From assembly GCA_964016885.1 (NCBI GenBank), contig OZ024742.1:366296001-366360000 (forward strand): a stretch of DNA of 64,000 bases, in the 5' to 3' direction. The stretch is from Eledone cirrhosa (lineage: Eukaryota). The first letter of the stretch is position 1, and each line of letters starts with the position of its first letter. Shown piece by piece: positions 2,739 to 64,000 of this stretch. The translations under genes and the position numbers were made by a program. Below the pieces are notes generated by a model that was given only the letters and a program-made list of their open reading frames with translations, searched no databases and was not told the DNA's origin.

Positions 2739-3040
2739 ACAATGAATATTAACACTTTACTTCGGTATTGAGTACTCCTTTCTCTCAGCCGTCAACCACA
2801 TACGGATATATATATATATCCAGTGGGTGTAACTAGGAGTTACTGCAGGTTCACCCGGGTGAGCACTCGATAGCATTTTAAGAGGGTCCGTCGAGCTGCC
2901 GATTATTGAGTCGGGTAGGATCGACATAGATCGAACCTTGTGCTGATCAGTGGCGAAACGCGCGTCACCTATAAATAAATGCAATGAAGGAATAATCAAT
3001 CGTCCTTTTTATCCTTTCTCTCTCTCTATATATATATATA

Positions 3041-3989
3041 TATTTATTAAAATAACAGATTAAAGTTTAAGCAAAGAATCGCTGCTTTCACCCTTAACGG
3101 GATCTTCTGAAACTAACAAAGTCAATCTGTAAACGCAGAAGTGGATATTTCAAAAAACGTTGCAACCGGAGGAAGACAGGAAGACGATACTTTGGTTCGT
3201 GGTAACGTTCGCTGGCTAAGAACGGGAAAAAACGAATATAATACGTCATTAATAGGAGCAGAGAAAAACAATTACGCGTAAAGACAGAACCACGTTTATG
3301 GTATAAAAGAGGTCGTAGACTAATGTTCTCTTGGGTGGTTCATAGAGTCGTTCTCTGGCAATGAACGAAAAAAACGAAGATAATAAGTCATATGTGGAGC
3401 GTAGAGAACAATAGCACGCAAAGACAAAACCACGTAAACGGTATAGTAGAAGTCGTAGACTAAAATTCTAACTAGGAGACCGAATGAATCTCCGCTACAG
3501 AGTTAAGAACAAAGTAAATAAATACAATACAGAAGTAATAGAAATAAATAAATACATACACGCAAACAAATACGTACATACACAAGCATACGCAAAACAC
3601 TTACCATAGGTATACAAAACCACGCACATATAAATATGTGTGTGTGTATGCGTGTATACAAATAAATAAATAATTATATAAACGTATATAAATAAATAAA
3701 TACGTATATAACAAGCGCACACACATACCTACATGTAATACACGAATGTTCGGAGACGTAAGTCAACTAAAACATGAAGTACACATATACACACACCCTA
3801 CATACGTACGAACCTGCATACTCACACAGACGCAAAACTTTCGTCCCGTTAAGGGTGAAAGCAGCGATTCTTTGCTTAAACTTTAATCTGTTATTTTAAT
3901 AAATATTTGCTCTAGGGTTCTTATATATTTCATATATATTTATCCTTATCGAGCCCTCTTTGGATTTTAGTCTTCAAATTCATTATTAT

Positions 3990-4030: not shown

Positions 4031-4032
<2 letters not shown>

Positions 4033-5122
4033 AGATAGAAAAATGCGTACAGCAAAAAAAAGTAATATTGTTGGAATATAAACCTTTAAAAATACAGGAC
4101 AAGAAACTAAAATAAAACTTTAAAAGAATAGGACAAGAAACTAAGATAAAACTTTAAAAGAATAGGACAAGAAACTAAGATAAAACTTTAAAGAATTGGA
4201 CAAGAAATATAAAATTTTACAATAATATTAGTGGCACAATTTTTATTGATAAAAAATCGAGTTCCACATTCATAGGCTCTGGGTTCCACATTCAGAGGTC
4301 GTCGTCAGACCGGGGGGATCATTTTATCCTGGTTTGAACACCAATTGGGCCATAACCATACCCCTATTTCATCATTCGGCGACACGCGTCATGTGTCATG
4401 CATAATGTGAATGGACCCATGGGCCCATGAGCACAGATCTTGAGCAGCAGCAGACGGTCTTGTCGTCCCGCTTATCCTTGATCTTGACCAACCCGTCCAT
4501 CTTCTCCTTGCATCTTGTCCTTGAGTTCAAGTCCGGCAGTCAAGATGAATGCGTGCCACAGCTTTCTGGTACAGGAAGGGGGAGAAGGGGGACTGGAGGG
4601 ATGACGGGACAGAGGGAGGGAGGACCGGTGGTTGAGGGAGGTGCCGTAGTCGGTTGTCAGAGTCGACATCTTGTCCCGGTCGTCTTCTCCATCTTCGTCT
4701 GGTGTTGCGGGACCAGAAGTGCATTCTTGGAGGAGACCTGCAGCTGCATCGGCCAATTCTTCTTGCAATGGTCATTCTGACGGAGCAGAACTGCTCAGCC
4801 AACCAACCCCAACCAGAACCAACCGCTCAGGGGCAACGCACAATGAGAGCATGACAATTATTATGCACTAATGAAGAAGATACTGGGGCATAGCACAGGA
4901 AACGAATAAAAAAATTTTGCCACTAATATTATTGTAAAATGTTTTATTTCTTGTCCAATTCTTTAAAGTTTTATCTTAGTTTCTTGTCCTATTCTTTTAA
5001 AGTTTTATCTTAGTTTCTTGTCCTATTCTTTTAAAGTTTTATTTTAGTTTCTTGTCCTGTATTTTTAAAGGTTTATATTCCAACAATATTACTTCTTTTG
5101 GTGTACGCATTTTTCTATCTGG
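4031..5122. repeat. ~205-bp inverted repeat with internal ~33-bp tandem subrepeats around a GC-rich core
   Basis: 4031-4235 is the near-perfect reverse complement of 4917-5122. GGACAAGAAACTAAGATAAAACTTTAAAAGAAT-like unit occurs about four times per arm. Confidence 0.9.
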
Positions 5123-5295
5123 TCTACTATTTTTTAAGGCAATGCAAGCAACAACTATCTAATAATTAAATGATCATAGTGAATTACTGACAAGTGATTG
5201 ACATTTTAAAGTTCTTTTGAGTATAATTGCAATCTAGTTGAGGCAACTGGCTTATTGACAAAGCTAGTAAATCATGAATGCATTTGAGATGATTA

Positions 5296-5755
5296 GTGCA
5301 TAAAAGTGAATTGGTGAAACTTTTGCATTTCAATGGTGTTACAGCAATAGATGTAAGTTATATAGTAGTAATACTTTATCATTTTAACTTTTTAGAATGG
5401 ACAAAACCCATGCAAAGAAATGACTTTGACTGCAGTGATTCTCTCCAATTTACTTACAAAGCAAAACGTGGTCAAATACCTTATCATCTCTGATAAAATG
5501 CCCATTGAATCACTGAAAATCGGATGCATGGAATTCCTCATAAAATGCACCTATGAATCGGAAGCCATCACATATATCAATGGATATAGGGAGTTGTTCA
5601 CACTGGAAGACCATCACTTCATTTGTGACTTCATCAGTTATCTCCACGATTATCTCAGACACCCAATGCCATTGATGAGAGGTGATCCAATGTGTGAGCA
5701 TGTAACTAATCTTATAGAAGTTGTTATCGACCACCTGGCTTTTAGTGACATTTGA
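5296..5755 (+). CDS. Unknown small protein, spliced (43-nt intron 5353-5395); 5' end uncertain
   Basis: Removing GTAAGT...TTTTTAG joins two track ORFs in frame: ...LLHFNGVTAID|NGQNPCKEMTLTAVILSNLL...HLAFSDI*. Non-repetitive, protein-like composition. Confidence 0.55.
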
Positions 5756-5935
5756 CTGATTTGACTGACAATGATGTATTTTTAAAAAGTATGTGTACAT
5801 TCTTGTTACTATTTTAAGGCAATGCAAGCAACAACTATTTAATAAAATTTAAATTTAAAAATGACCATTGTGCATTACTAGTATGATGACATTTTATTAA
5901 GTCACAAAATTATTCAGTCAGCCATAGAACAAGGA

Positions 5936-6730
5936 TCAGATGGCAAAAACATTGGCAAAAATTTGTGTCAATTTAAGATTTCCAACATTGTTCAAATGAA
6001 TCATATCTGGTTTGAAGTCAGATTTGTCAAATTTTGACCAATTTTCAATGTTGTGAAGATTGGGCAAGTTCAATTTTTGAATCATTTCTTTCATGCAGTA
6101 ATTAAACTTTTCCAAACGAGAATTTCTCTTGCCCAAGTCATTTTTATTTTCAATTACACTTTGTGGACGTGGAATGACACCACTGTAGAAAATGGGTGTA
6201 CAGTGGTGCTTTTCCGCTATTTTCTGTAGCCTTGCAAAGAGACTCTTCCCTGTTTTTCCGGTTTTGTGCCTCGAATGGGCACTTTGTCCTTAATTTACAA
6301 ATAAATGATTAATAAAAAATACTTGGGCAAAAATTATTGTATTACTTTGCACAGCTTTGTAGTGCCAACGGTGCGACGAGGATTCAGATCATTAGAGCCG
6401 ACATGAACCACCAATACTTTCACAAAAGGACAACAGATAACAATGTTGGCGATTAACATTACCTGGCCCTGACGGGCTCCAGGTATACAAAATATCTAAG
6501 TATTTTTGTTGGTATGATAAGTAAATACATTTGAATTAATATTTTTATACCTTCTGGTCATTCGATTTCGCCACATTTCTAATTATGGATTTGTAAAAAC
6601 TGGCATGAATGTGAATTTGATCAGTCCAATTGCCCGATTTTAGTGAAAAGTTTTGATTCGAAATGGAAATACCCCATTTCTGTGCCATGGAAAAAATGAA
6701 TAAGCCGATCAAAAAGCCGCGAAACATCAT
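5936..6730 (-). pseudogene. Intron-containing SGNH/GDSL hydrolase (esterase) of the TE-borne type, probably frameshifted
   Basis: Four SGNH blocks in order: YKSIIRNV (GDS-like), FCIPGA, VLVVHVGSND, and IFYSGVIPRP...KPDMIHLNNVG. Phase-0 GT-AG intron 6550-6496 (55 nt). Second GT-AG intron 6345-6289 (57 nt) needs a 1-nt frameshift near 6250 or an alternative acceptor. Confidence 0.8.
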
Positions 6731-7668
6731 TTTTAATTAAGCGAAATTAGTGGATGCAAATCTCAGAAAATATTGTACACTATTCGCACTTATCGCACTA
6801 TTCGCACCTATCGGTACAAAAATATAGCGCACTATTCGCACCTATCGGTACAAAAAATCGCACGACTCTTAATAATACTAGAAGTGCAAACTATCTGTTG
6901 AATACCTGGTATATGAAGAGCAACCGATACGATCGGTCGGCGATCGGTCTTGAAGAAGAATGAAGAATGAAGTGAAATTTTGGTCTGGTTGTTGTCATCG
7001 GTGTTTCGCAGAGATGCTGGCACGAACAAAGGTGTCAGTGACACAAAGTTGTCCGCTTGAACAAAGGTGTCGGTCCGACAAAGGTGTCAGTCAGACAGAC
7101 AGTCAGACATTGTCACAGTCGGTGCGACAAAGCGATCGATGCGATTAAAAAAAATTTAACTCACATGTTTACCTATATTTTCGCAAACTATTGATAGATT
7201 GGTACAAAAAATAGCTTTGATAATAAACATAAATTGTTAATGAAGTATTTAAAAAGCATTTTAGCAGTGAAAAGTGAAGTAATGTTTCACACTGACGCAA
7301 GTAGGGCCGTTCAGAAATAACGTAGTCAATTAGGAGGAGGGGATTCGGCGATTTGACTAACATAATCACAATCTCAAGAGTTCCGCCGAAAAAAATTCGT
7401 CATTTCTGGATTACCTCCCCTAGCGTCACGCTTACTACTCACTCACTTGAACACAAGATTTATCAGCAAACTTTGATTATAAACTTTTTCCCGCTGGACC
7501 AAATTTCTAGATTTTTAAACCAAAAGATGCGTAATGATCTACTGTTCATGCTCATATAAGTTTTATCTCAGTTAAATAAAGTAGAGCCGCGCTGTACTGT
7601 CGTAAACAGACGATTGCCAACGAAAACACGACCACAACAATATTACTAAACGGACTACCGTCCGTTTA

Positions 7669-7717
<49 letters not shown>

Positions 7718-10239: not shown

Positions 10240-12255
10240 CACCACCACTACAACACCACCACTACAACACCACCACCAATACAACACCACCACCATTACG
10301 ACACCACCACTACAACACCACCACTACAACACCACCACTACAACACCACCACTACAACACCACCACTACAACACCACCACTACAACACCACCACTACAAC
10401 ACCACCACTACAACACCACCACTACACCACCACCACTACAACACCACCACTACAACACCACCACCAATACAAAACCACCACCACTACAACACCACCACCA
10501 TTACGACACAACCACTACAACACCACTACTACACCACCACCATTACGACACCACCACTACAACACCACCACCAATACAACACCACCACTACAACACCACC
10601 ACCAATACAACACCACCAATACAACACCACTACTACAACACCACCACCAATACAACACCACCAATACAACACCACTACTACACCACCACCATTACGACAC
10701 CACCACTACAACGCCACCACCAATACAACACCACCACTACAACACCACCACCAATACAACACCACCAATACAACACCACCACTACAACACCACCACCAAT
10801 ACAACACCACCAATACAACACCACCAATACAACACCACTACTACAACAACACCACTTCAACACCACTACTACAACACCACCACTACAACACCAACACCAC
10901 TACAACAACACTACTACAACACCACCACTACAACACCACCATTACAACACCACCATAACAACACCACCACTACAACACCACCACTACAACACCACCACTA
11001 CAACGCCACCACCAATACAACACCACCACCATTACGACACCACCACTACAACACCACCACTACAACACCACCACTACAACACCACCACTACAACACCACC
11101 ACTACAACACCACCACTACATCACCACTACTACAACACCACCACTACAACAACACCACTTCAACACCACTACTACAACACCACCACTACAACACCACCAC
11201 TACAACACCACCAACAATACAACACCAACACCATTACGACACCACCACTACAACACCACCACCATTACGACACCACCACTACAACACCACCACTACAACA
11301 CCACCACTACAACAACACCACTTCAACACCACTACTACAACACCACCACTACAACACCACCACCAATACAACACCACCACCATTACGACACCACCACTAC
11401 AACACCACCACTACAACACCACCACTACAACACCACCACTACAACACCACCACTACAACACCACCACTACATCACCACTACTACAACACCACCACTACAA
11501 CACCACCACTACAACACCACTACTACAACACCACCACTACAACACCACCACTACACCACCACCACTACAACACCACCAGTACAACACAACCACTACACCA
11601 CCACCACTACAACACCACTACTACAACACCACCACTACACCACCACCACTACACCACCACCACTACAACACCACTACTACAACACCACCACTACAACACC
11701 ACCACTATAACACCACCACTACAACACCACCACTACAACACCACCACTACAACACCACTACAACAACACCACCACTACACCACCACCATTACGACACCAC
11801 CACTACAACACCACTACTACAACACCACCACTACAACACCACCACTACAACACCATCACTACAACACCACCACTACAACACCACCACTACAACACCACCA
11901 CTACAACACCACCACTACAACACCACCACTACAACACCACCACTACAACACCACCACTACAACACCACTACAACAACACCACCACTACACCACCACCATT
12001 ACGACACCACCACTACAACACCACTACTACAACACCACCACTACGACACCACCACTACAACACCACCACCATTACACCACCACTACTACAACACCACCAC
12101 TACAACACCACCACTACAACACCACCACCATTACACCACCACTACTACAACACCACTACTACAACACCACCACCACAACCACTACCACCACCTCTACGAC
12201 CGCCAGCATCACCACCAGTACCACCACCTCTGCCCACCACCACCACCACCACCAT
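10240..12255. repeat. ~2-kb cryptic (CAC/ACT/ACA) trinucleotide-based tandem repeat
   Basis: Recurrent ACAACACCACCACT-type units. The 704-aa ORF is its translation. Confidence 0.9.
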
Positions 12256-30154: not shown

Positions 30155-31090
30155 GGTTGATACACAGATTACAAGGTTGAGCTAACGATGATCCACAGAT
30201 TACAAGGTTGAGCTAACGATGATCCACGGGTTACAAGGTTGAGCTAACGATGATCCCCGGGTTACAAGGTTGAGCTAACGATGATCCCCGGGTTACAAGG
30301 TTGAGCTAACGATGATCTACGGGTTACAAGGTTGAGCTAAGGTTGATCCACAGATTACAAGGTTGAGCTAACGATAATCCACAGGTTACAAGGTTGAGCT
30401 AAGGTTGATCCACATGTTACAAGGTTGAGCTAACGACGATCCACAGGTTACAAGGTTGAGCTAACGACGATCCACAGGTTACAAGGTTGAGATAAGGTTG
30501 ATACACAGGTTACAAGGTTGAGATAAGGTTGATCCACAGGTTACAAGGTTGAGCTAAGGTTGATACACAGGTTACAAGGTTGAGATAAGGTTGATCCACA
30601 GGTTACAAGGTTGAGCTAAGGTTGATACACAGGTTACAAGGTTGAGCTAACGATGATCCACAGGTTACAAGGTTGAGCTAAGGTTGATCCCACAGGTTAC
30701 AAGGTTGAGCTAACGATGATCCACGGGTTACAAGGTTGAGCTAACAATGATCCACGGGTTACAAGGTTGAGCTAAGGTTGATCCACAGGTTACAAGGTTG
30801 AGCTAAGGTTGATCCACAGGTTACAAGGTTGTGCTAACGATGATCCACAGGTTAAACGGTTGAGCTAAGGTTGATCCCACAGGTTACAAGGTTGAGCTAA
30901 GGTTGATCCACAGGTTACATGGTTGAGCTAACAATGATCCACGGGTTACAAGGTTGTGCTAACGATGATCCACAGGTTAAACGGTTGACCTAACGATGAT
31001 CCACAGGTTACAAGGTTCAGCTAACAATGATCCACGGGTTACAAGGTTGAGCTAAGGTTGATCCCATAGGTTACAAGGTTGAACTAACGA
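30155..31090. repeat. 31-bp minisatellite, ~30 copies
   Basis: Unit GGTTACAAGGTTGAGCTAA(CGA/GGT)TGATCCACA. Confidence 0.95.
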
Positions 31091-31225
31091 TTGTATGACC
31101 CAAGCTTATGTCTTGGAAAGGATCTTTATGGGTATAAACTTATCATTGTTATGACGGACATTATAATTGCTGATTTTATTTATATTTATCATTTATATAT
31201 TGTGTGGTTTCTATTTTATTATTAT

Positions 31226-41412: not shown

Positions 41413-42211
41413 GTGCATATATATATATATATAGGGTGGGAGATGTAATTTTCTTCTCTTTCTCCTCCCAAGTTGTTTTTATTTGCTCATTTATTTATTA
41501 ATTTTACATTTCTGTATTTTCGATTTTTTTGTTACGTTAAGGAGAGTTATTTATATAATTAAGGTGGCAAATGAAATTGGAATGGCATGGAAATAGTAAG
41601 GTGGTGAAGTGTATGGTGTAGTGGGTGTAGGTGGTAAGGCAGTGGAGGAATTCTAAATTCTAGCTAATTAGATTGAAATAACAGCAATTTACTTCAGTAT
41701 TTCTGGAGTGATTTACACGTAAGCAGGTCAAATCCGTTGTGTGTTGCTAGGTTATTAAGATAGTAATGTATTCCTGTGATTAAGAACTTTTTGTTTCCTT
41801 TTTTCGTTTGGTGTCATAAGTATAATTCCTCCCAAGAAATTTAAACCATTTTAAAACAATACTGATACATAAAGAAGTCATTTATTTCTAGATATCACCA
41901 ACATCATCTTTCCATAACCGGTAGAGTCTGGTGCTAGTGTGCCACGCTAGACATGGTAATCAATAGCCAGACCTGTACCAGTCCTTGATGTATATTGTCT
42001 AGTATTATGTGCTAAGGTAAAAGATACATTTCTGTTTGTTTTGTCCGTGTCTGTCTTTCGTCGATGTTGGTGATGTTGTTGCTCTTACAATTACTGTTAC
42101 TTTCTCCAGCAGCAGGTGCCGTCTAAGACTAATCCAAGCTCTGCAGCACTTGCGACGAGGAGGGTTAACTCGCCAAATATTGGTCGCTCTTCGACAGGTT
42201 TGTAGTTGAGC

Positions 42212-42850
42212 CTGTAGCACTGGAGACATCTCGTGTCCTCGACCCTAGGACCACCTCCCTACTCACTATCATCTGTACAAAGTTGGCTACCTGTAGCACT
42301 GGAGACATCTGGTAGCCTGGGCCCTAGGACCACCTCCCTACTTACCACCATCGGTACAAAGTTGGCTACCTGTAGCTGTAGCAGTAGAGACATCTGGTAT
42401 CCTGGGCCCGAGGACCACCTCCCTACTCACCATCATCTGTACAAAGTTGGCTACCTGTAGCACTGGAGACATCTGGTATCCTGGGCCCTAGGACCACCTC
42501 CCTACTTACCACCATCGGTACAAAGTTGGCTACCTGTAGCACTGGAGACATCTGGTATCCTGGGCCCTAGGACCACCTCCCTACTTACCACCATCGGTAC
42601 AAAGTTGGCTACCTGTAACACTGGAGACATCTGGTATCCTGGGCCCTAGGACCACCTCCCTACTTACCACCATCGGTACAAAGTTGGCTACCTGTAGCAC
42701 TGGAGACATCTGGTATCCTGGGCCCTAAGACCACCTCCCTACTTACCACCATCGGTACAAAGTTGGCTACCTGTAGCACTGGAGACATCTGGTATCCTGG
42801 GCCCTAAGACCACCTCCCTACTTACCACCATCGGTACAAAGTTGGCTACC
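42212..42850. repeat. 79-bp GC-rich minisatellite, ~8 copies
   Basis: CTGTAGCACTGGAGACATC... recurs at 42455, 42534 and 42613, a period of 79. Confidence 0.95.
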
Positions 42851-55548: not shown

Positions 55549-58500
55549 TAGAGCTTGACTGTGGGTCCAGACTGTGAGGGTCAAGTGGGCGATGTATTAA
55601 GTCACCCAGAAAGATCTTGACTGTGGGTCCAGATTGTGAGGGTCAAGTGGGCGATGTATTAAGTCACCCAGATAGAGCTTGACTGTGGGTCCAGACTGTG
55701 AGGGTCAAGTGGGCGATGTATTAAGTCACCCAGATAGAGCTTGACTGTGGATCCAGACTGTGAGGGTCAAGTGGGCGATGTATTAAGTCACCCAGATAGA
55801 GCTTGACTGTGGGTCCAGACTGTGAGGGTCAAGTGGGCGATGTATTAAGTCAGCCAGAAAGAGCTTGACTGTGGGTCCAGACTGTGAGGGTAAAGTGGGC
55901 GATGTATTAAGTCACCCAGAAAGAGCTTGACTGTGGGTCCAGACTGTGAGGGTCAAGTGGGCGATGTATTAAGTGACCCAGAAAGAGCTTGACTGTGGGT
56001 CCAGACTGTGAGGGTAAAGTGGGCGATGTATTAAGTCACCCAGTTAGAGCTTGACTGTGGGTCAAGATTGTGAGGGTCAAGTGGGCGATGTATTAAGTCA
56101 CCCTGATAGAGCTTGACTGTGGGTCCAGACTGTGAGGGTCAAGTGGGCGATGTATTAAGTCACCCAGAAAGAGTTTGACTGTGGGTCCAGACTGTGAGGG
56201 TAAAGTGGGCGATTTCTTAAGTGACCCAGAAAGAGCTTGACTGTTGGTCCGGACTGTGAGGGTCAAGTGGGCGATGTATTAAGTGACCCAGAAAGAGCTT
56301 GACTGTTGGTCCGGACTGTGAGGGTCAAGTGGGCGATGTATTAAGTGACCCAGAAAGAGCTTGACTGTGGGTCCAGACTGTGAGGGTCAAGTGGGCAATG
56401 TATTAAGTGACCCAGAAAGAGCTTGACTGTTGGTCCGGACTGTGATGGTCAAGTGGGCGATGTATTAAGTGACCCAGAAAGAGCTCGACTGTGGGTCCAG
56501 ACTGTGAGGGTCAAGTGGGCAATGTATTAAGTGACCCAGAAAGAGCTTGACTGTTGGTCCGGACTGTGAGGGTCAAGTGGGCGATGTATTAAGTGACCCA
56601 GAAAGAGCTTGACTCTGGGTCCAGACTGTGATGGTCAAGTGGGCGATGTATTAAGTCACCCAGATAGAGCTTGACTGTGGGTCCAGACTGTGAGGGTCAA
56701 GTGGGCGATGTATTAAGTCACCCAGATAGAGCTTGACTGTGGGTCCAGACTGTGAGGGTCAAGTGGGCCATGTATTAAGTAACCCAGATAGAGCTTGACT
56801 GTGGGTCCAGACTGTGAGGGTCAAGTGGGCGATGTATTAAGTCACCCAGATAGAGCTTGACTGTGGGTCCAGACTGTGAGGGTCAAGTGGGCGATGTATT
56901 AAGTCACCCAGATAGAGCTTGACTCTGGGTCCAGACTGTGAGGGTAAAGTGGGCGATTTCTTAAGTGACCCAGAAAGAGCTTGACTGTTGGTCCGGACTG
57001 TGAGGGTCAAGTGGGCGATGTATTAAGTGACCCAGAAAGAGCTTGACTGTTGGTCCGGACTGTGAGGGTCAAGTGGGCGATGTATTAAGTGACCCAGAAA
57101 GAGCTTGACTGTGGGTCCAGACTGTGAGGGTCAAGTGGGCAATGTATTAAGTGACCCAGAAAGAGCTTGACTGTTGGTCCGGACTGTGATGGTCAAGTGG
57201 GCGATGTATTAAGTGACCCAGAAAGAGCTCGACTGTGGGTCCAGACTGTGAGGGTCAAGTGGGCAATGTATTAAGTGACCCAGAAAGAGCTTGACTGTTG
57301 GTCCGGACTGTGAGGGTCAAGTGGGCGATGTATTAAGTGACCCAGAAAGAGCTTGACTCTGGGTCCAGACTGTGATGGTCAAGTGGGCGATGTATTAAGT
57401 CACCCAGATAGAGCTTGACTGTGGGTCCAGACTGTGAGGGTCAAGTGGGCGATGTATTAAGTCACCCAGATAGAGCTTGACTGTGGGTCCAGACTGTGAG
57501 GGTCAAGTGGGCCATGTATTAAGTAACCCAGATAGAGCTTGACTGTGGGTCCAGACTGTGAGGGTCAAGTGGGCGATGTATTAAGTCACCCAGATAGAGC
57601 TTGACTGTGGGTCCAGACTGTGAGGGTCAAGTGGGCGATGTATTAAGTCACCCAGATAGAGCTTGACTCTGGGTCCAGACTGTGAGGGTCAAGTGGGCGA
57701 TGTATTAAGTCACCCAGAAAGAGCTTGACTGTGGATCCAGACTGTGAGGGTCAAGTGGGCGATTTCTTAAGTCACCCAGAAAGATCTTGACTGTGGGTCC
57801 AGACTGTGAGGTTCAAGTGGGCGATGTATTAAGTCACCCAGAAAGAGCTTGACTGTGGGTCCAGACTGTGAGGGTCAAGTGGGCGATGTATTAAGTGACC
57901 CAGAAAGAGCTTGACTGTGGGTCCAGACTGTGAGGGTCAAGTGGGCGATGTATTAAGTCACCCAGAAAGAGCTTGACTGTGGGTCCAGACTGTGAGGGTC
58001 AAGTGGGCGATGTATTAAGTCACCCAGATAGAGCTTGACTGTGGGTCCAGACTGTGAGGGTCAAGTGGGCGATGTATTAAGTGACCCAGAAAGAGCTTGA
58101 CTGTGGGTCCAGACTGTGAGGGTAAAGTGGGCGATGTATTAAGTCACCCTGATAGAGCTTGACTGTGGGTCCAGATTGTGATGGTCAAGTGGGCGATGTA
58201 TTAAGTCACCCTGATAGAGCTTGAATGTGGGTCCAGACTGTGAGGGTCAAGTGGGCGATGTATTAAGTCACCCAGAAAGAGCTTGACTGTGGGTCCAGAC
58301 TGTGAGGGTCAAGCGGGCGATGTATTAAGTAACCCAGATAGAGCTTGACTGTGGGTCCAGACTGTGAGGGTCAAGTGGGCAATGTATTAGGTGACCCAGA
58401 AAGAGCTTGACTGTGGGTCCAGACTGTTAGGGTCAAGTGGGCGATGTATTAAGTCACCCAGAAAGAGCTTGACTGTGGGTCCAGACTGTGAGGGTCAAGT

Positions 58501-61500
58501 GGGCAATGTATTAGGTGACCCAGAAAGAGCTTGACTGTGGGTCCAGACTGTTAGGGTCAAGTGGGCGATGTATTAAGTCACCCAGATAGAGCTTGACTGT
58601 GGGTCCAGACTGTGAGCGTCAAGTGGGCGATGTATTAAGTCATCCAGAAAGAGCTTGACTGTTGGTCCGGACTGTGAGGGTCAAGTGGGCGATGTATTAA
58701 GTGACCCAGAAAGAGCTTGACTCTGGGTCCAGACTGTGATGGTCAAGTGGGCGATGTATTAAGTCACCCAGATAGAGCTTGACTGTGGGTCCAGACTGTG
58801 AGGGTCAAGTGGGCGATGTATTAAGTCACCCAGATAGAGCTTGACTGTGGGTCCAGACTGTGAGGGTCAAGTGGGCGATGTATTAAGTCACCCAGATAGA
58901 GCTTGACTCTGGGTCCAGACTGTGAGGGTCAAGTGGGCGATGTATTAAGTCACCCAGATAGAGCTTGACTGTGGGTCCAGACTGTGAGGGTCAAGTGGGC
59001 GATGTATTAAGTAACCCAGATAGAGCTTGACTGTGGGTCCAGACTGTGAGGGTCAAGTGGGCGATGTATTAAGTCACCCAGATAGAGCTTGACTGTGGGT
59101 CCAGACTGTGAGTGTCAAGTGGGCGATGTATTAAGTCACCCAGAAAGAGCTTGACTGTGGATCCAGACTGTGAGGGTCAAGTGGGCGATTTCTTAAGTCA
59201 CCCAGAAAGATCTTGACTGTGGGTCCAGACTGTGAGGGTCAAGTGGGCGATGTATTAAGTCACCCAGATAGAGCTTTACTGTGGGTCCAGACTCTGAGGG
59301 TCAAGTGGGCGATGTATTAAGTCACCCAGTTAGAGCTTGACTGTGGGTCCAGATTGTGAGGGTCAAGTGGGCGATGTATTAAGTCACCCTGATAGAGCTT
59401 GAATGTGGGTCCAGACTGTGAGGGTCAAGTGGGCGATGTATTAAGTCACCCAGAAAGAGCTTGACTGTGGGTCCAGACTGTGAGGGTCAAGTGGGCGATT
59501 TCTTAAGTCACCCAGAAAGATCTTGACTGTGGGTCCAGACTGTGAGGGTCAAGTGGGCGATGTATTAAGTAACCCAGAAAGAGCTTGACTGTGGGTCCAG
59601 ACTGTGAGGATCAAGTGGGCGATGTATTAAGTCACCCAGAAAGAGCTTGACTGTGGGTCCAGACTGTGAGGGTCAAGTGGGCGATGTATTAAGTCACCCA
59701 GATAGAGCTTGACTCTGGGTCCAGACTGTGAGGGTCAAGTGGGCGATGTATTAAGTCACCCAGATAGAGCTTGACTGTGGGTCCAGACTGTGAGGGTCAA
59801 GTGGGCGATGTATTAAGTCACCCAGAAAGAGCTTGACTGTGGGTCCAGACTGTGAGGGTCAAGTGGGCGATGTATTAGGTGACCCAGAAAGAGCTTGACT
59901 GTGGGTCTAGACTGTTAGGGTCAAGTGGGCGATGTATTAAGTCACCCAGAAAGAGCTTGACTGTGGGTCCAGACTGTGAGCGTCAAGTGGGCGATGTATT
60001 AAGTCACCCAGAAAGAGCTTGACTGTGGGTCAGAGACTGTGAGGGTCAAGCGGGCGATGTATTAAGTCACCCAGATAGAGCTTGACTGTGGGTCCAGACT
60101 GTGAGGGTAAAGTGGGCGATGTATTAGGTGACCCAGAAAGAGCTTGACTGTGGGGCCAGACTGTTAGGGTCAAGTGGGCGATGTATTAAGTCACCCAGAT
60201 AGAGCTTGACTATGGGTCCAGACTGTGAGCGTCAAGTGGGCGATGTATTAAGTCATCCAGAAAGAGCTTGACTGTGGGTCCAGACTGTGAGGGTCAAGTG
60301 GGCGATGTATTAAGTCACCCAGATAGAGCTTGACTGTGGGTCCAGACTGTGAGGGTCAAGTGGGCGATGTATTAAGTCACCCAGATAGAGCTTGACTGTG
60401 GGTCCAGACTGTGAGGGTCAAGTGGGCGATGTATTAAGTCACCCAGATAGAGCTTGACTGTGGGTCCAGACTGTGAGGGTCAAGTGGGCGATGTATTAAG
60501 TAACCCAGATAGAGCTTGACTGTGGGTCCAGACTGTGAGGGTCAAGTGGGCGATGTATTAAGTCACCCAGATAGAGCTTGACTGTGGGTCCAGACTGTGA
60601 GGGTCAAGTGGGCGATGTATTAAGTCACCCAGATAGAGCTTGACTGTGGGTCCAGACTGTGAGGGTCAAGTGGGCGATGTATTAAGTAACCCAGATAGAG
60701 CTTGACTGTTGGTCCAGACTGTGAGGGTCAAGTGGGCGATGTATTAAGTCACCCAGATAGAGCTTGACTGTGGGTCCAGACTGTGAGGTTCAAGTGGGCG
60801 ATGTATTAAGTGACCCAGAAAGAGCTCGACTGTGGGTCCAGCCTGTGAGGGTAAAGTGGGCGATGTATTAAGTCACCCAGAAAGAGCTTGACTGTGGGTC
60901 CAGACTGTGAGGGTCAAGTGGGCGATGTATTAAGTCACCCAGATAGAGCTTGACTCTGGGTCCAGACTGTGAGGGTCAAGTGGGCGATGTATTAAGTGAC
61001 CCAGAAAGAGCTTGACTGTGGGTCCAGACTGTGAGGGTCAAGTGGGCGATGTATTAAGTGACCCAGAAAGAGCTTGACTGTGGGTCCAGACTGTGAGGGT
61101 AAAGTGGGCGATGTATTAAGTCACCCAGTTAGAGCTTGACTGTGGGTCCAGATTGTGAGGGTCAAGTGGGCGATGTATTAAGTCACGCTGATAGAGCTTG
61201 AATGTGGGTCCAGACTGTGAGGGTCAAGTGGGCGATGTATTAAGTCACCCAGAAAGAGCTTGACTGTGGGTCCAGACTGTGAGGGTCAAGTGGGCGATGT
61301 ATTAGGTGACCCAGAAAGAGCTTGACTGTGGATCCAGACTGTGAGGGTCAAGTGGGCGATTTCTTAAGTCACCCAGAAAGATCTTGACTGTGGGTCGAGA
61401 CTGTGAGGGTCAAGTGGGCGATGTATTAAGTCACCCAGATAGAGCTTTACTGTGGGTCCAGACTCTGAGGGTCAAGTGGGCGATGTATTAAGTAACCCAG

Positions 61501-64000
61501 ATAGAGCTTGACTGTGGGTCCAGACTGTGAGGGTCAAGTGGGCGATGTATTAAGTCACCCAGAAAGAGCTTGACTGTGGGTCCAGACTGTGAGGTTCAAG
61601 TGGGCAATGTATTAAGTAACCCAGATAGAGCTTGACTGTTGGTCCAGACTGTGAGGGTCAAGTGGGCGATGTATAAAGTCACCCAGAAAGAGCTTGACTG
61701 TGGGTCCAGACTGTGAGGGTCAAGTGGGCGATGTATTAAGTCACCCAGAAAGAGCTTGACTGTGGGTCTAGACTGTGAGGTTCAAGTGGGCGATGTATTA
61801 AGTGACCCAGAAAGAGCTCGACTGTGGGTCCAGCCTGTGAGGGTAAAGTGGGCGATGTATTAAGTCACCCAGAAAGAGCTTGACTGTGGGTCCAGACTGT
61901 GAGGGTCAAGTGGGCGATGTATTAAGTCACCCAGATAGAGCTTGACTCTGGGTCCAGACTGTGAGGGTCAAGTGGGCGATGTATTAAGTGACCCAGAAAG
62001 AGCTTGACTGTGGGTCCAGACTGTGAGGGTAAAGTGGGCGATGTATTAAGTCACCCAGTTAGAGCTTGACTGTGGGTCCAGACTGTGAGGGTCAAGTGGG
62101 CGATGTATTAAGTCACCCTGATAGAGCTTGAATGTGGGTCCAGACTGTGAGGGTCAAGTGGGCGATGTATTAAGTCACCCAGAAAGAGCTTGACTGTGGG
62201 TCCAGACTGTGAGGGTAAAGTGGGCGATTTCTTAAGTCACCCAGAAAGATCTTGACTGTGGGTCCAGACTGTGAGGGTCAAGTGGGCGATGTATTAAGTC
62301 ACCCAGATAGAGCTTGACTCTAGGTCCAGACTGTGAGGGTCAAGTGGGCGATGTATTAAGTCACCCAGAAAGAGCTTGACTGTGGGTCCAGACTGTGAGG
62401 ATCAAGTGGGCGATGTATTAAGTCACCCAGAAAGAGCTTGACTGTGGGTCCAGACTGTGAGGGTCAAGTGGGCGATGTATTAAGTCACCCAGATAGAGCT
62501 TGACTCTGGGTCCAGACTGTGAGGGTCAAGTGGGCGATGTATTAAGTCACCCAGATAGAGCTTGACTGTGGGTCCAGACTGCGAGGGTCAAGTGGGCGAT
62601 GTATTAAGTCACCCAGAAAGAGCTTGACTGTGGGTCCAGACTGTGAGGGTCAAGTGGGCGATGTATTAGGTGACCCAGAAAGAGCTTGACTGTGGGTCTA
62701 GACTGTTAGGGTCAAGTGGGCGATGTATTAAGTCACCCAGAAAGAGCTTGACTGTGGGTCCAGACTGTGAGCGTCAAGTGGGCGATGTATTAAGTCACCC
62801 AGAAAGAGCTTGACTGTGGGTCAGAGACTGTGAGGGTCAAGCGGGCGATGTATTAAGTCACCCAGATAGAGCTTGACTGTGGGTCCAGACTGTGAGCGTC
62901 AAGTGGGCGATGTATTAAGTCATCCAGAAAGAGCTTGACTGTTGGTCCGAACTGTGAGGGTCAAGTGGGCGATGTATTAAGTGACCCAGAAAGAGCTTGA
63001 CTCTGGGTCCAGACTGTGATGGTCAAGTGGGCGATGTATTAGGTGACCCAGATAGAGCTTGACTGTGGGTCCAGACTGTGAGGGTCAAGTGGGCGATGTA
63101 TTAAGTCACCCAGATAGAGCTTGACTGTGGGTCCAGACTGTGAGGGTCAAGTGGGCGATGTATTAAGTAACCCAGATAGAGCTTGACTGTTGGTCCAGAC
63201 TCTGAGGGTCAAGTGGGCGATGTATTAAGTCACCCAGATAGAGCTTGACTGTTGGTCCAGACTCTGAGGGTCAAGTGGGCGATGTATTAAGTAACCCAGA
63301 TAGAGCTTGACTGTGGGTCCAGACTGTGAGGGTCAAGTGGGCGATGTATTAAGTAACCCAGATAGAGCTTGACTGTTGGTCCAGACTCTGAGGGTCAAGT
63401 GGGCGATGTATTAAGTCACCCAGATAGAGCTTGACTGTTGGTCCAGACTCTGAGGGTCAAGTGGGCGATGTATTAAGTAACCCAGATAGAGCTTGACTGT
63501 GGGTCCAGACTGTGAGGGTCAAGTGGGCGATGTATTAAGTCACCCAGAAAGAGCTTGACTGTGGGTCCAGACTGTGAGGTTCAAGAGGGCGATGTATTAA
63601 GTCACCCAGAAAGAGCTTGACTGTGGGTCCAGACTGTGAGGTTCAAGTGGGCAATGTATTAAGTAACCCAGATAGAGCTTGACTGTTGGTCCAGACTGTG
63701 AGGGTCAAGTGGGCGATGTATTAAGTCACCCAGAAAGAGCTTGACTGTGGGTCCAGACTGTGAGGGTCAAGTGGGCGATGTATTAAGTCACCCAGAAAGA
63801 GCTTGACTGTGGGTCCAGACTGTGAGGTTCAAGTGGGCGATGTATTAAGTGACCCAGAAAGAGCTCGACTGTGGGTCCAGCCTGTGAGGGTAAAGTGGGC
63901 GATGTATTAAGTCACCCAGAAAGAGCTTGACTGTGGGTCCAGACTGTGAGGGTCAAGTGGGCGATGTATTAAGTCACCCAGATAGAGCTTGACTGTGGGT
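55549..64000. repeat. 62-bp satellite DNA array (~136 monomers visible, open at window end)
   Basis: GAGCTTGACTGTGGGTCCAGACTGTGAGGGTCAAGTGGGCGATGTATTAAGTCACCCAGAWA. 55551 to 55861 equals 5 x 62. Confidence 0.98.

What the first reader, a model, noticed from the sequence alone, without database searches (positions are those of the whole stretch)
4031..7670. Unclassified 3.6-kb gene-carrying mobile element with micro-intron genes and asymmetric termini
Seen: between two (TA)n runs lie a 205-bp inverted repeat with iteron-like subrepeats, a GC-rich core, two convergent spliced genes (unknown protein and SGNH hydrolase) and short tandem motifs (6778-6862, 7024-7091). A terminal 10-bp hairpin sits directly after a 13-mer that is inverted near the opposite end. 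Known: subterminal IR plus stem-loop ends and SGNH cargo occur in Helentron/Helitron2, and SGNH domains and intron retention also occur in some PLEs. Inference: a deletion derivative of a large, possibly undescribed cargo-carrying element. No transposase, Rep or RT is visible.
Basis: partly seen in the sequence, partly recalled or inferred. Interest (0 to 1): 0.8.

Follow-up and report, generated by a model that had tools for sequence, protein, structure and literature searches.

The report
Rolling-circle transposon with a duplicated end
This 3.6-kb piece is a deleted, multicopy form of a Helitron-like (rolling-circle) transposon whose longer, transposase-coding relatives lie in the same genome; unusually, it pairs a group-2 transposase with group-1-like ends and carries a 200-base mirror copy of its own 3' end, which likely marks where copying stops.

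Summary
Real, with exact ends 4031-7671, read on the minus strand: A|TC + 10-bp hairpin ... CTGG|T, no target duplication. It is a young family of hundreds of copies. It equals the first 1,085 and last 2,556 bases of a ~12.7-kb element in the same genome that encodes a RepHel transposase (HUH, PIF1, DUF6570, UCH), so it is a non-autonomous HLE2-type Helitron, not a PLE or an unknown class. The cargo (SGNH esterase, BTB/BACK-like ORF) is specific to this family, evolves about neutrally, and is frameshifted in this copy. The unusual part is the ends. Related families in this genome share 5'-TC plus hairpin, a 3'-CTRG end, A|T targets and no short 3' hairpin; CTAG ends on an HLE2 were reported only for Phytophthora proto-Helentron in the papers searched. 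They also share an inverted copy of the last ~200 bases, ending exactly at CTRG|T about 1 kb upstream, kept although arm sequences have turned over, and kept by all 9 complete copies in an unbiased sample. Likely role: end or terminator signal; rival: self-priming of the second strand. One sister family is nearly identical and intact, so this can be tested.

The parts
4031..7671 (-). Whole non-autonomous element, 3,641 bp, 5'-TC...CTGG-3', inserted between A and T without target duplication
7646..7671 (-). 5' TC followed at once by a 10-bp-stem hairpin (GGTA loop); likely origin end
   Evidence: compensatory G-C to C-G change in family B
7635..7647 (-). 5' subterminal inverted repeat, 13 bp, overlapping the hairpin stem by 2 nt
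6587..7634 (-). 5' segment shared with the RepHel partner: upstream region with tandem motifs (6778-6862, 7026-7097) and the start of the RepHel reading frame (ATG at 6688)
6586..6587 (-). Deletion junction: RepHel leader (..FYKS) fused in frame to SGNH (IIRNV..); about 9.1 kb removed, including G-D of the GDS motif
   Evidence: 9,093 bp in L066/L067
5936..6586 (-). SGNH/GDSL esterase gene, predicted introns 6496-6550 and 6289-6345; private frameshift near 6248 in this copy
5807..5896 (.). Diverged second copy (76%) of the module next to the inner arm
5397..5755 (+). Gene A, 118-119 aa, BTB/BACK-like by language-model features only; predicted 43-bp intron 5353-5395 before the ATG; private frameshift near 5404 in this copy
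5123..5208 (+). Module next to the inner end copy; begins T..TTTTYAAGGCAAYGC, conserved in families A-D
4910..5122 (+). Inner inverted copy of the 3' end, finishing exactly at CTGG followed by T
4245..4909 (.). GC-rich loop between the arms; no Pfam hit; not alignable with the loops of families B and C
4031..4244 (-). Outer arm = true 3' end: 34-bp repeats, 13-bp subterminal repeat at 4061-4073, GCATTTTTC motif, terminal CTGG; no significant short hairpin

Best explanation
The element is an internal-deletion derivative of a ~12.7-kb HLE2-type Helitron, and it is likely copied in trans by that family's RepHel, likely starting at the TC-hairpin end and stopping at CTGG, with the 214-bp inverted repeat likely standing in for the missing short 3' hairpin as the end signal. 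Shown: shared ends and sequence with RepHel-coding copies, exact boundaries, A|T target, no duplication, conservation and retention of the long repeat. Inferred from the Helraiser model (PMC4778049, passages): nick at A^TC, strand displacement, second nick after CTRG, circle, insertion into AT. Inferred here: as the outer arm is displaced it zips onto the inner arm and the stem closes exactly at CTRG, where RepHel would cut. The cargo genes are passengers. Odds: identity as a non-autonomous HLE2 about 0.95; TC-hairpin end as origin about 0.85; long repeat needed in cis about 0.8; as terminator or end guide rather than primer about 0.5.
For: RepHel frame starts inside the shared 5' segment and runs away from the hairpin; Helitron_like_N, PIF1, DUF6570, UCH hits; HUH, two-tyrosine and Walker A motifs. 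RepHel loci that also hold pieces of both ends: L086/87, L088/89, L090/91; L096/97 holds the whole 3' 2.56 kb at 97.7%. Ends: 43 of 45 5' ends read A|T-C, 33 of 33 3' ends are followed by T (3 may be inner ends). Empty sites put the T inside the element: 13 of 14 and 28 of 29 spanning paralogues, and L098 sits in phase in a tandem array. TC+hairpin starts seen in families A-D, CTRG|T ends and inner copy in A-E; A and C arms share only 10-11 aligned bases while the two arms within one element are 97-99.5% alike. Last 60 nt have no hairpin in A, B, C (z -1.0, 0.0, 0.3) while 5' hairpins score z -4.1 to -9.0. Of 20 copies picked only by the 5' hairpin, 9 reach the 3' end within 5 kb and all 9 keep module, inner arm, loop and outer arm despite deleting up to 2.1 kb elsewhere; 10 stop early and 1 is longer. 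Fixed 5' and variable 3' ends fit a 5' origin. pN/pS 0.84 (SGNH) and 0.78 (gene A) among 20 copies.
Against: No experiment and no reads. No head-to-tail junction in the assembly (0 matches). HUH nucleases cut single strands, and in the stem CTRG would be paired, which sits awkwardly with a simple terminator. The 10 early-ending copies may be later deletions; two loci hold only an outer arm and one lacks the 5' part, so polarity is not proved by truncations. No sampled family-A RepHel copy has an unbroken frame. The tree is a quick tree with no named HLE2 reference. The layout was not found outside this genome: of 80 metagenome loci, mostly short and only 31-39% identical, none had a long repeat ending at CTRG|T.
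Confidence: 0.75

Rival explanations
1. Same element, but the long repeat serves to prime the second strand: after cutting at CTRG the 3' end is paired with the inner arm and would be extended back along the body, or the inner CTRG|T is a second RepHel nick site on the other strand.
For: Geometry is that of a primer-template junction: the inner arm ends exactly at the terminal base in A-E and is followed by T plus a conserved motif (581 exact motif matches). Arms evolve together: no fixed difference in 24 copies, 5 of 84 substitutions mirrored, 2 of them outside a mutation hotspot.
Against: The loop has the same orientation in 41 of 41 loci (a few are duplicates), so there is no parvovirus-like flip-flop. 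No insertion starting at the inner CTGG|T was seen.
Confidence: 0.25
2. Reverse polarity: the repeat-rich end is the origin (34-bp repeats as binding sites), the hairpin is a 3' terminator, and RepHel lies in reverse, as in some HLE2 elements.
For: On the plus strand the 13-mer lies directly before a hairpin at the end, the usual HLE2 3' layout; reversed ORFs are known (PMC3627910, PMC4067079, passages). The AT target reads the same on both strands.
Against: The element would begin with C, whereas both groups begin with T (PMC3627910); the other strand gives TC...CTRG in every family; the hairpin end is the fixed end and the repeat end the variable one. Family C has no 34-bp repeats in its arm.
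Confidence: 0.1
3. The inner copy is a functionless by-product of template switching or of self-insertion in reverse, carried along passively.
For: Self-insertion and multiple termini are described for Fusarium Helitrons (PMC5148889, passages). Loop content differs among families.
Against: Kept across families whose arms no longer align, at a similar size and distance, and kept by several independent deletion subfamilies (junctions 275/1554, 274/2406, 262/2330, 1085/SGNH).
Confidence: 0.1
4. A chance composite of a 1.1-kb MITE and a separate repeat, or a Penelope-like retroelement remnant.
For: The 1.1-kb unit looks like a foldback element; SGNH domains occur in retroelements.
Against: No free-standing 1.1-kb unit in 9 arm pairs fetched for lacking an exact 5' motif; no target duplication; the partner encodes RepHel, not RT.
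Confidence: 0.02

Closest known systems
Proto-Helentron-Pi of Phytophthora infestans (PMC4067079 section 11; PMC11417382 passages)
   Same: HLE2-type RepHel with DUF6570 and no endonuclease; 3' CTAG; insertion between A and T; no duplication; 5' stem-loop; short inverted repeats.
   Different: 5' TC rather than TT; short repeats lie 24-31 nt from each end rather than 3.6 kb inside; UCH fused to RepHel; 200-bp inverted copy of the 3' end, not mentioned in the passages read. Kinship of the two transposases was not tested.
HLE2-reverse, FoHeli3-5 of Fusarium oxysporum (PMC5148889, PMC11417382, passages)
   Same: Hairpin at the 5' end before the left short repeat, none at the 3' end; 9-13 kb size.
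   Different: FoHeli3-5 run TGCCT...CTCCTGT with no established target; here TC...CTRG into A|T, plus the long repeat.
HLE2 subgroups c/d with UCH domain (PMC11417382, passages)
   Same: DUF6570 plus UCH; nearest relatives often carry PF00443.
   Different: Their termini are not described in the passages read; subgroup placement was not tested.
Canonical Helitron, HLE1 (Helraiser; PMC4778049, passages)
   Same: 5' TC, CTRR 3', A|T target, two-tyrosine HUH plus PIF1.
   Different: Different RepHel clade; no short 3' hairpin; 5' hairpin and subterminal repeats present.
Texim SGNH genes in fish Helitrons (PMC4021074, passages)
   Same: Intron-containing SGNH hydrolase carried by a Helitron.
   Different: No sequence link shown (searches found no homologue); here confined to family A and cut at the catalytic motif in the small element.

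Membership tests
Helitron-like elements | RepHel transposase (HUH Rep, catalytic tyrosines, PIF1 helicase) in an element with the same ends | tested here: met
   In the partner, not in the window copy:
Helitron-like elements | No target-site duplication; 5' T | tested here: met
Helitron-like elements | Circular or head-to-tail intermediates | tested here: inconclusive
   0 junctions in the assembly; no reads available
HLE2 | RepHel outside the HLE1 clade, with the DUF6570 marker | tested here: met
   PF20209 E 2e-14 to 9e-18 in A, B, C, absent from an HLE1 ORF fragment of the same genome; quick tree
HLE2 | Short subterminal inverted repeats and a 5' hairpin | tested here: met
   13 bp (A, B), 10 bp (C); hairpin z -4.1 to -9.0; the 5' repeat is 24-28 nt from the end, not 0-2
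HLE2 (canonical ends) | 3' hairpin after the 3' repeat | tested here: not met
   z -1.0, 0.0, 0.3; only a 3-4-bp vestige
HLE2 (canonical ends) | Insertion between T and T | tested here: not met
   A|T by empty sites
Helentron | Apurinic endonuclease domain on RepHel | tested here: not met
   No such Pfam hit in the B and C frames; UCH sits there instead
HLE1 | 5' TC, 3' CTRR, A|T target | tested here: met
HLE1 | Short hairpin about 11 nt before CTRR, and HLE1-clade RepHel | tested here: not met
Proto-Helentron | 5' TT | tested here: not met
   5' TC in A-D
Proto-Helentron | RepHel grouping with the Phytophthora protein | not tested
   No Phytophthora sequence among the 120 listed hits
Penelope-like elements | Reverse transcriptase in the autonomous partner | tested here: not met
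MITE / TIR transposon | Inverted repeats at both element ends with target duplication | tested here: not met
SGNH hydrolase | Blocks I-V (GDS, G, GxND, DxxH) in order | tested here: met
   All four in the partner, DxxH in most copies; GDSL_3 E 0.005-0.013 on exon 3, below the curated cut-off; the small element lacks G-D of block I
BTB/BACK (gene A) | Profile or structure match | tested here: inconclusive
   Atlas features 0.93, 184 shared; no Pfam, PDB or library hit; model pLDDT 37

The most novel reading that the evidence does not exclude
A lineage of HLE2 transposons has built a second, inverted copy of its own nick site into the element, so that the displaced strand folds back and primes its own second strand, or is nicked on both strands: a rolling-circle transposon with a rolling-hairpin step, with Helitron1-type TC/CTAG ends, and with a 2A-like peptide near the start of some of its transposases.
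Probability: 0.2. Interest if true: 0.8.

Novelty: new variant of a known kind. Interest (0 to 1): 0.58.

Why it matters
The HLE1/HLE2 split is drawn partly on ends and target sites. Here an HLE2-type transposase goes with TC/CTRG ends and A|T targets in several families of a likely animal genome, a combination HELIANO reports only for Phytophthora (PMC11417382). The conserved mirror copy of the 3' end bears on two open points of Helitron mechanism: how copying stops without a short hairpin, and how the displaced strand becomes double-stranded. Family C (12.8 kb, 2,230-2,245-aa frame open in 7 of 7 copies fetched, 99.2-99.8% alike) is a ready natural substrate for a test. The 3.6-kb copy itself is an ordinary dead passenger.

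Tried and rejected
Homologue searches with SGNH exon 3 found nothing (PDB). Gene A: no hit in Pfam beyond E 0.035-0.065, PDB, or 1.84 billion representatives; single-sequence fold unusable. The best-scoring Helitron_like_N loci of the genome are HLE1 and share nothing with the element (15 of 15). Metagenome relatives gave no support for the layout elsewhere; L191 has a 211-bp repeat 5 kb behind its RepHel but it does not end in CTRG. Loop flip-flop not seen; head-to-tail junction not seen. Purifying selection on cargo not seen; the gene A test was out of frame and was redone. L005 favoured A|T in 28 of 28 paralogues but its left flank is diverged, so it was not relied on. Apparent flank duplications at L014, L016 and L092 are not general. 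No expression or polymorphism data could be obtained, and DNA around named relatives (Rhodnius, Nasonia, Linepithema) was not seen, so the range of the layout is open. Literature searches: proto-Helentron 3 papers; Helitron + long inverted repeat + CTAG 0; Helitron + NPGP 0; Helitron + octopus + RepHel 0; cephalopod + Helitron + Helentron 1, listing only. Repbase and Dfam could not be searched, most subscription papers are missing, and HELIANO figures S17-S19 are pictures that I could not see, so the layout may already sit in a repeat library. Earlier scan notes: none.

Full report
Observation. All described features are present. The long inverted repeat is 214/213 nt (4031-4244, 4910-5122), and the right boundary is 7671. 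A genome search scored 39 of 840 candidates; 30 cover most of the element at 93-100%, the window included. Exact motif counts are 310 for the hairpin end and 842 for the arm end, which occurs twice per element, controls 0. The 20 best copies differ by 1.3-1.9% outside the outer arm; they were chosen for similarity, so this overstates youth.

Ends and target. Copies stop at the same bases. On the minus strand they read A|TCC...CTGG|T: 43 of 45 5' ends have AT before CC and 33 of 33 3' ends are followed by T. Whether that T belongs to the element was tested on insertions into a common host repeat: 13 of 14 and 28 of 29 spanning paralogues fit better with the T inside the element, and a family-C copy sits in phase in a tandem array. 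So the ends are 5'-TC and CTRG-3', the target is A|T, and nothing is duplicated.

Partner. One SGNH hit lay 10.5 kb from a hairpin end. That locus (G000:C2:46812610-46823651, L066/L067) holds a RepHel gene that starts in the shared 5' segment and runs away from the hairpin: Helitron_like_N, DUF6570, PIF1 and UCH. The small element is its first 1,085 bases joined to the last 2,556; 9,093 bp are missing relative to L066/L067, and the junction fuses the RepHel leader in frame to the SGNH gene at the catalytic serine, removing G-D of GDS. L096/L097 holds the whole 3' part at 97.7%, and L086-L091 hold RepHel with pieces of both ends. No family-A RepHel copy examined has an unbroken frame. DUF6570 marks HLE2, and UCH is enriched in subgroups c/d (PMC11417382, abstract, introduction and passages read). 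A quick tree of 55 rows (45 top hits and 5 further named hits of 120, two HLE1 rows, A, B, C) groups A, B, C at 100 and far from HLE1; it has no named HLE2 reference.

Sister families. A Rep search gave 62 matches. Family B (11.2 kb, two copies 99.4% alike, both with the same in-frame stop) has the same 13-mer, a compensatory change in the hairpin and a CTAG end. Family C (12.8 kb) has an open 2,230-2,245-aa frame in 7 of 7 copies fetched, 99.2-99.8% alike, with TC plus a different hairpin and CTAG. D (4 copies) has TC+hairpin and CTAG; E (1 copy) has CTAG, its 5' end not found. An inverted copy of the 3' end, ending at CTRG and followed by T, was found in A, both B, 6 of 7 C, 3 of 4 D and E; in A-D it is followed by TTTTYAAGGCAAYGC, 581 exact matches in the genome. 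Arms of A and C share only their last 10-11 bases, yet arms within one element are 97-99.5% alike in A-C. None of A, B, C has a short 3' hairpin. SGNH and gene A were found only in family A among the ten long loci, and the loops do not align.

Is the long repeat needed? Twenty copies were taken in list order by the 5' hairpin alone. Nine reach the 3' end within 5 kb and all nine keep module, inner arm, loop and outer arm, while most delete 1.3-2.1 kb upstream; ten end early and one is longer. Among loci picked by the 3' motif for lacking an exact 5' motif, 10 of 13 outer ends still had all or part of a 5' end. The hairpin end is thus the fixed end, as for the essential left end of Helraiser (PMC4778049, passages), though later deletions could contribute. 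In 24 copies the arms have no fixed difference; 5 of 84 substitutions are mirrored, hinting at occasional arm-to-arm correction. The loop is never inverted (41 of 41 loci), and no head-to-tail junction was found.

Cargo. The SGNH gene has two predicted micro-introns and all four motif blocks in the partner; Pfam support is weak. Gene A is BTB/BACK-like by language-model features only; the likeness of its N-terminal half to the SPOP BACK region is my recollection, not a call. Both evolve about neutrally among copies (pN/pS 0.84, 0.78) and both are frameshifted in this copy.

Mechanism. Shown: derivation from a RepHel element, ends, target, conservation and retention of the long repeat. Inferred: trans mobilisation, nick at A^TC, end at CTRG. 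Best guess for the repeat: it replaces the missing hairpin by closing a 200-bp stem exactly at the cut site. The same geometry would let the cut 3' end prime second-strand synthesis, the main rival; absence of loop inversion argues only against a parvovirus-like resolution step.

Comparison. It works like a Helitron and belongs to HLE2 by its transposase, but fails two canonical HLE2 end features (3' hairpin, T|T target) and is no Helentron. Closest are proto-Helentron (PMC4067079, section 11 and passages) and HLE2-reverse (PMC5148889, passages). HELIANO states that proto-Helentron was reported only in Phytophthora and that nothing similar was detected in 404 genomes. SGNH cargo in Helitrons is known (PMC4021074, passages). 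I found no description of the long inverted end copy or in the passages read (also PMC3627910 and bioRxiv 10.1101/2025.11.06.686955, passages), but repeat libraries were not searchable. Outside this genome the layout was not found in 80 mostly short, distant metagenome loci, which is weak evidence either way.

Verdict. New variant of a known kind; interest 0.58.

Noticed in passing
L066:1607-2575, L082:3350-9061 (residue ~128): 2A-like peptide (LILSLLIIGCVELNPGP; C in place of the usual D) near the start of the family A and B RepHel, absent from C and from the small element. 4 of 120 homologues have GD[IV]ExNPGP near the N-terminus. No paper with Helitron and NPGP; 'Helitron' absent from the main text of two 2A surveys.
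   Followed up: partly
L098/L099, L100/L101, L242-L251: Family C: young, intact 12.8-kb HLE2, candidate active element; about 20 loci.
   Followed up: partly
L083:2471-3085: The loop of family B holds a PHD-finger-like ORF (Atlas 0.83, a lead only) that looks like a LINE ORF1 fragment (recalled likeness).
   Followed up: partly
window 4211, 4236, 4911, 4936: All four AAAATTTT sites in the arms are about five times more mutated than background, and 5 of 15 3'-truncated copies end within ~15 nt of the inner-arm site. May be a general sequence hotspot or palindrome breakage.
   Followed up: partly
L135:1379-1404; L018: One copy has the 5' hairpin loop inverted (TACC for GGTA); another has a doubled 5' hairpin.
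   Followed up: no
window 3040-3906 (to ~3990): Separate high-copy repeat with 63-bp perfect inverted repeats, 3,021 candidates, ~97% identity; several copies of the Helitron have inserted into it.
   Followed up: partly
L051-L065 (G000 C16, C19, C20, C27): Many similar HLE1 RepHel hits spaced roughly 70-200 kb apart on C20 and C27, probably a large segmental array.
   Followed up: no
window 55550-64000; 10240-12188; 30158-31091; 42211-42850: 62-bp satellite (136 copies, runs off the window), a 14-bp CA-rich array, and 31-bp and 79-bp minisatellites.
   Followed up: no
L191:19362-20379: Metagenome HLE2 locus with a perfect 211-bp inverted repeat around a ~600-bp loop, 5 kb behind RepHel; same dimensions but no CTRG end.
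   Followed up: no
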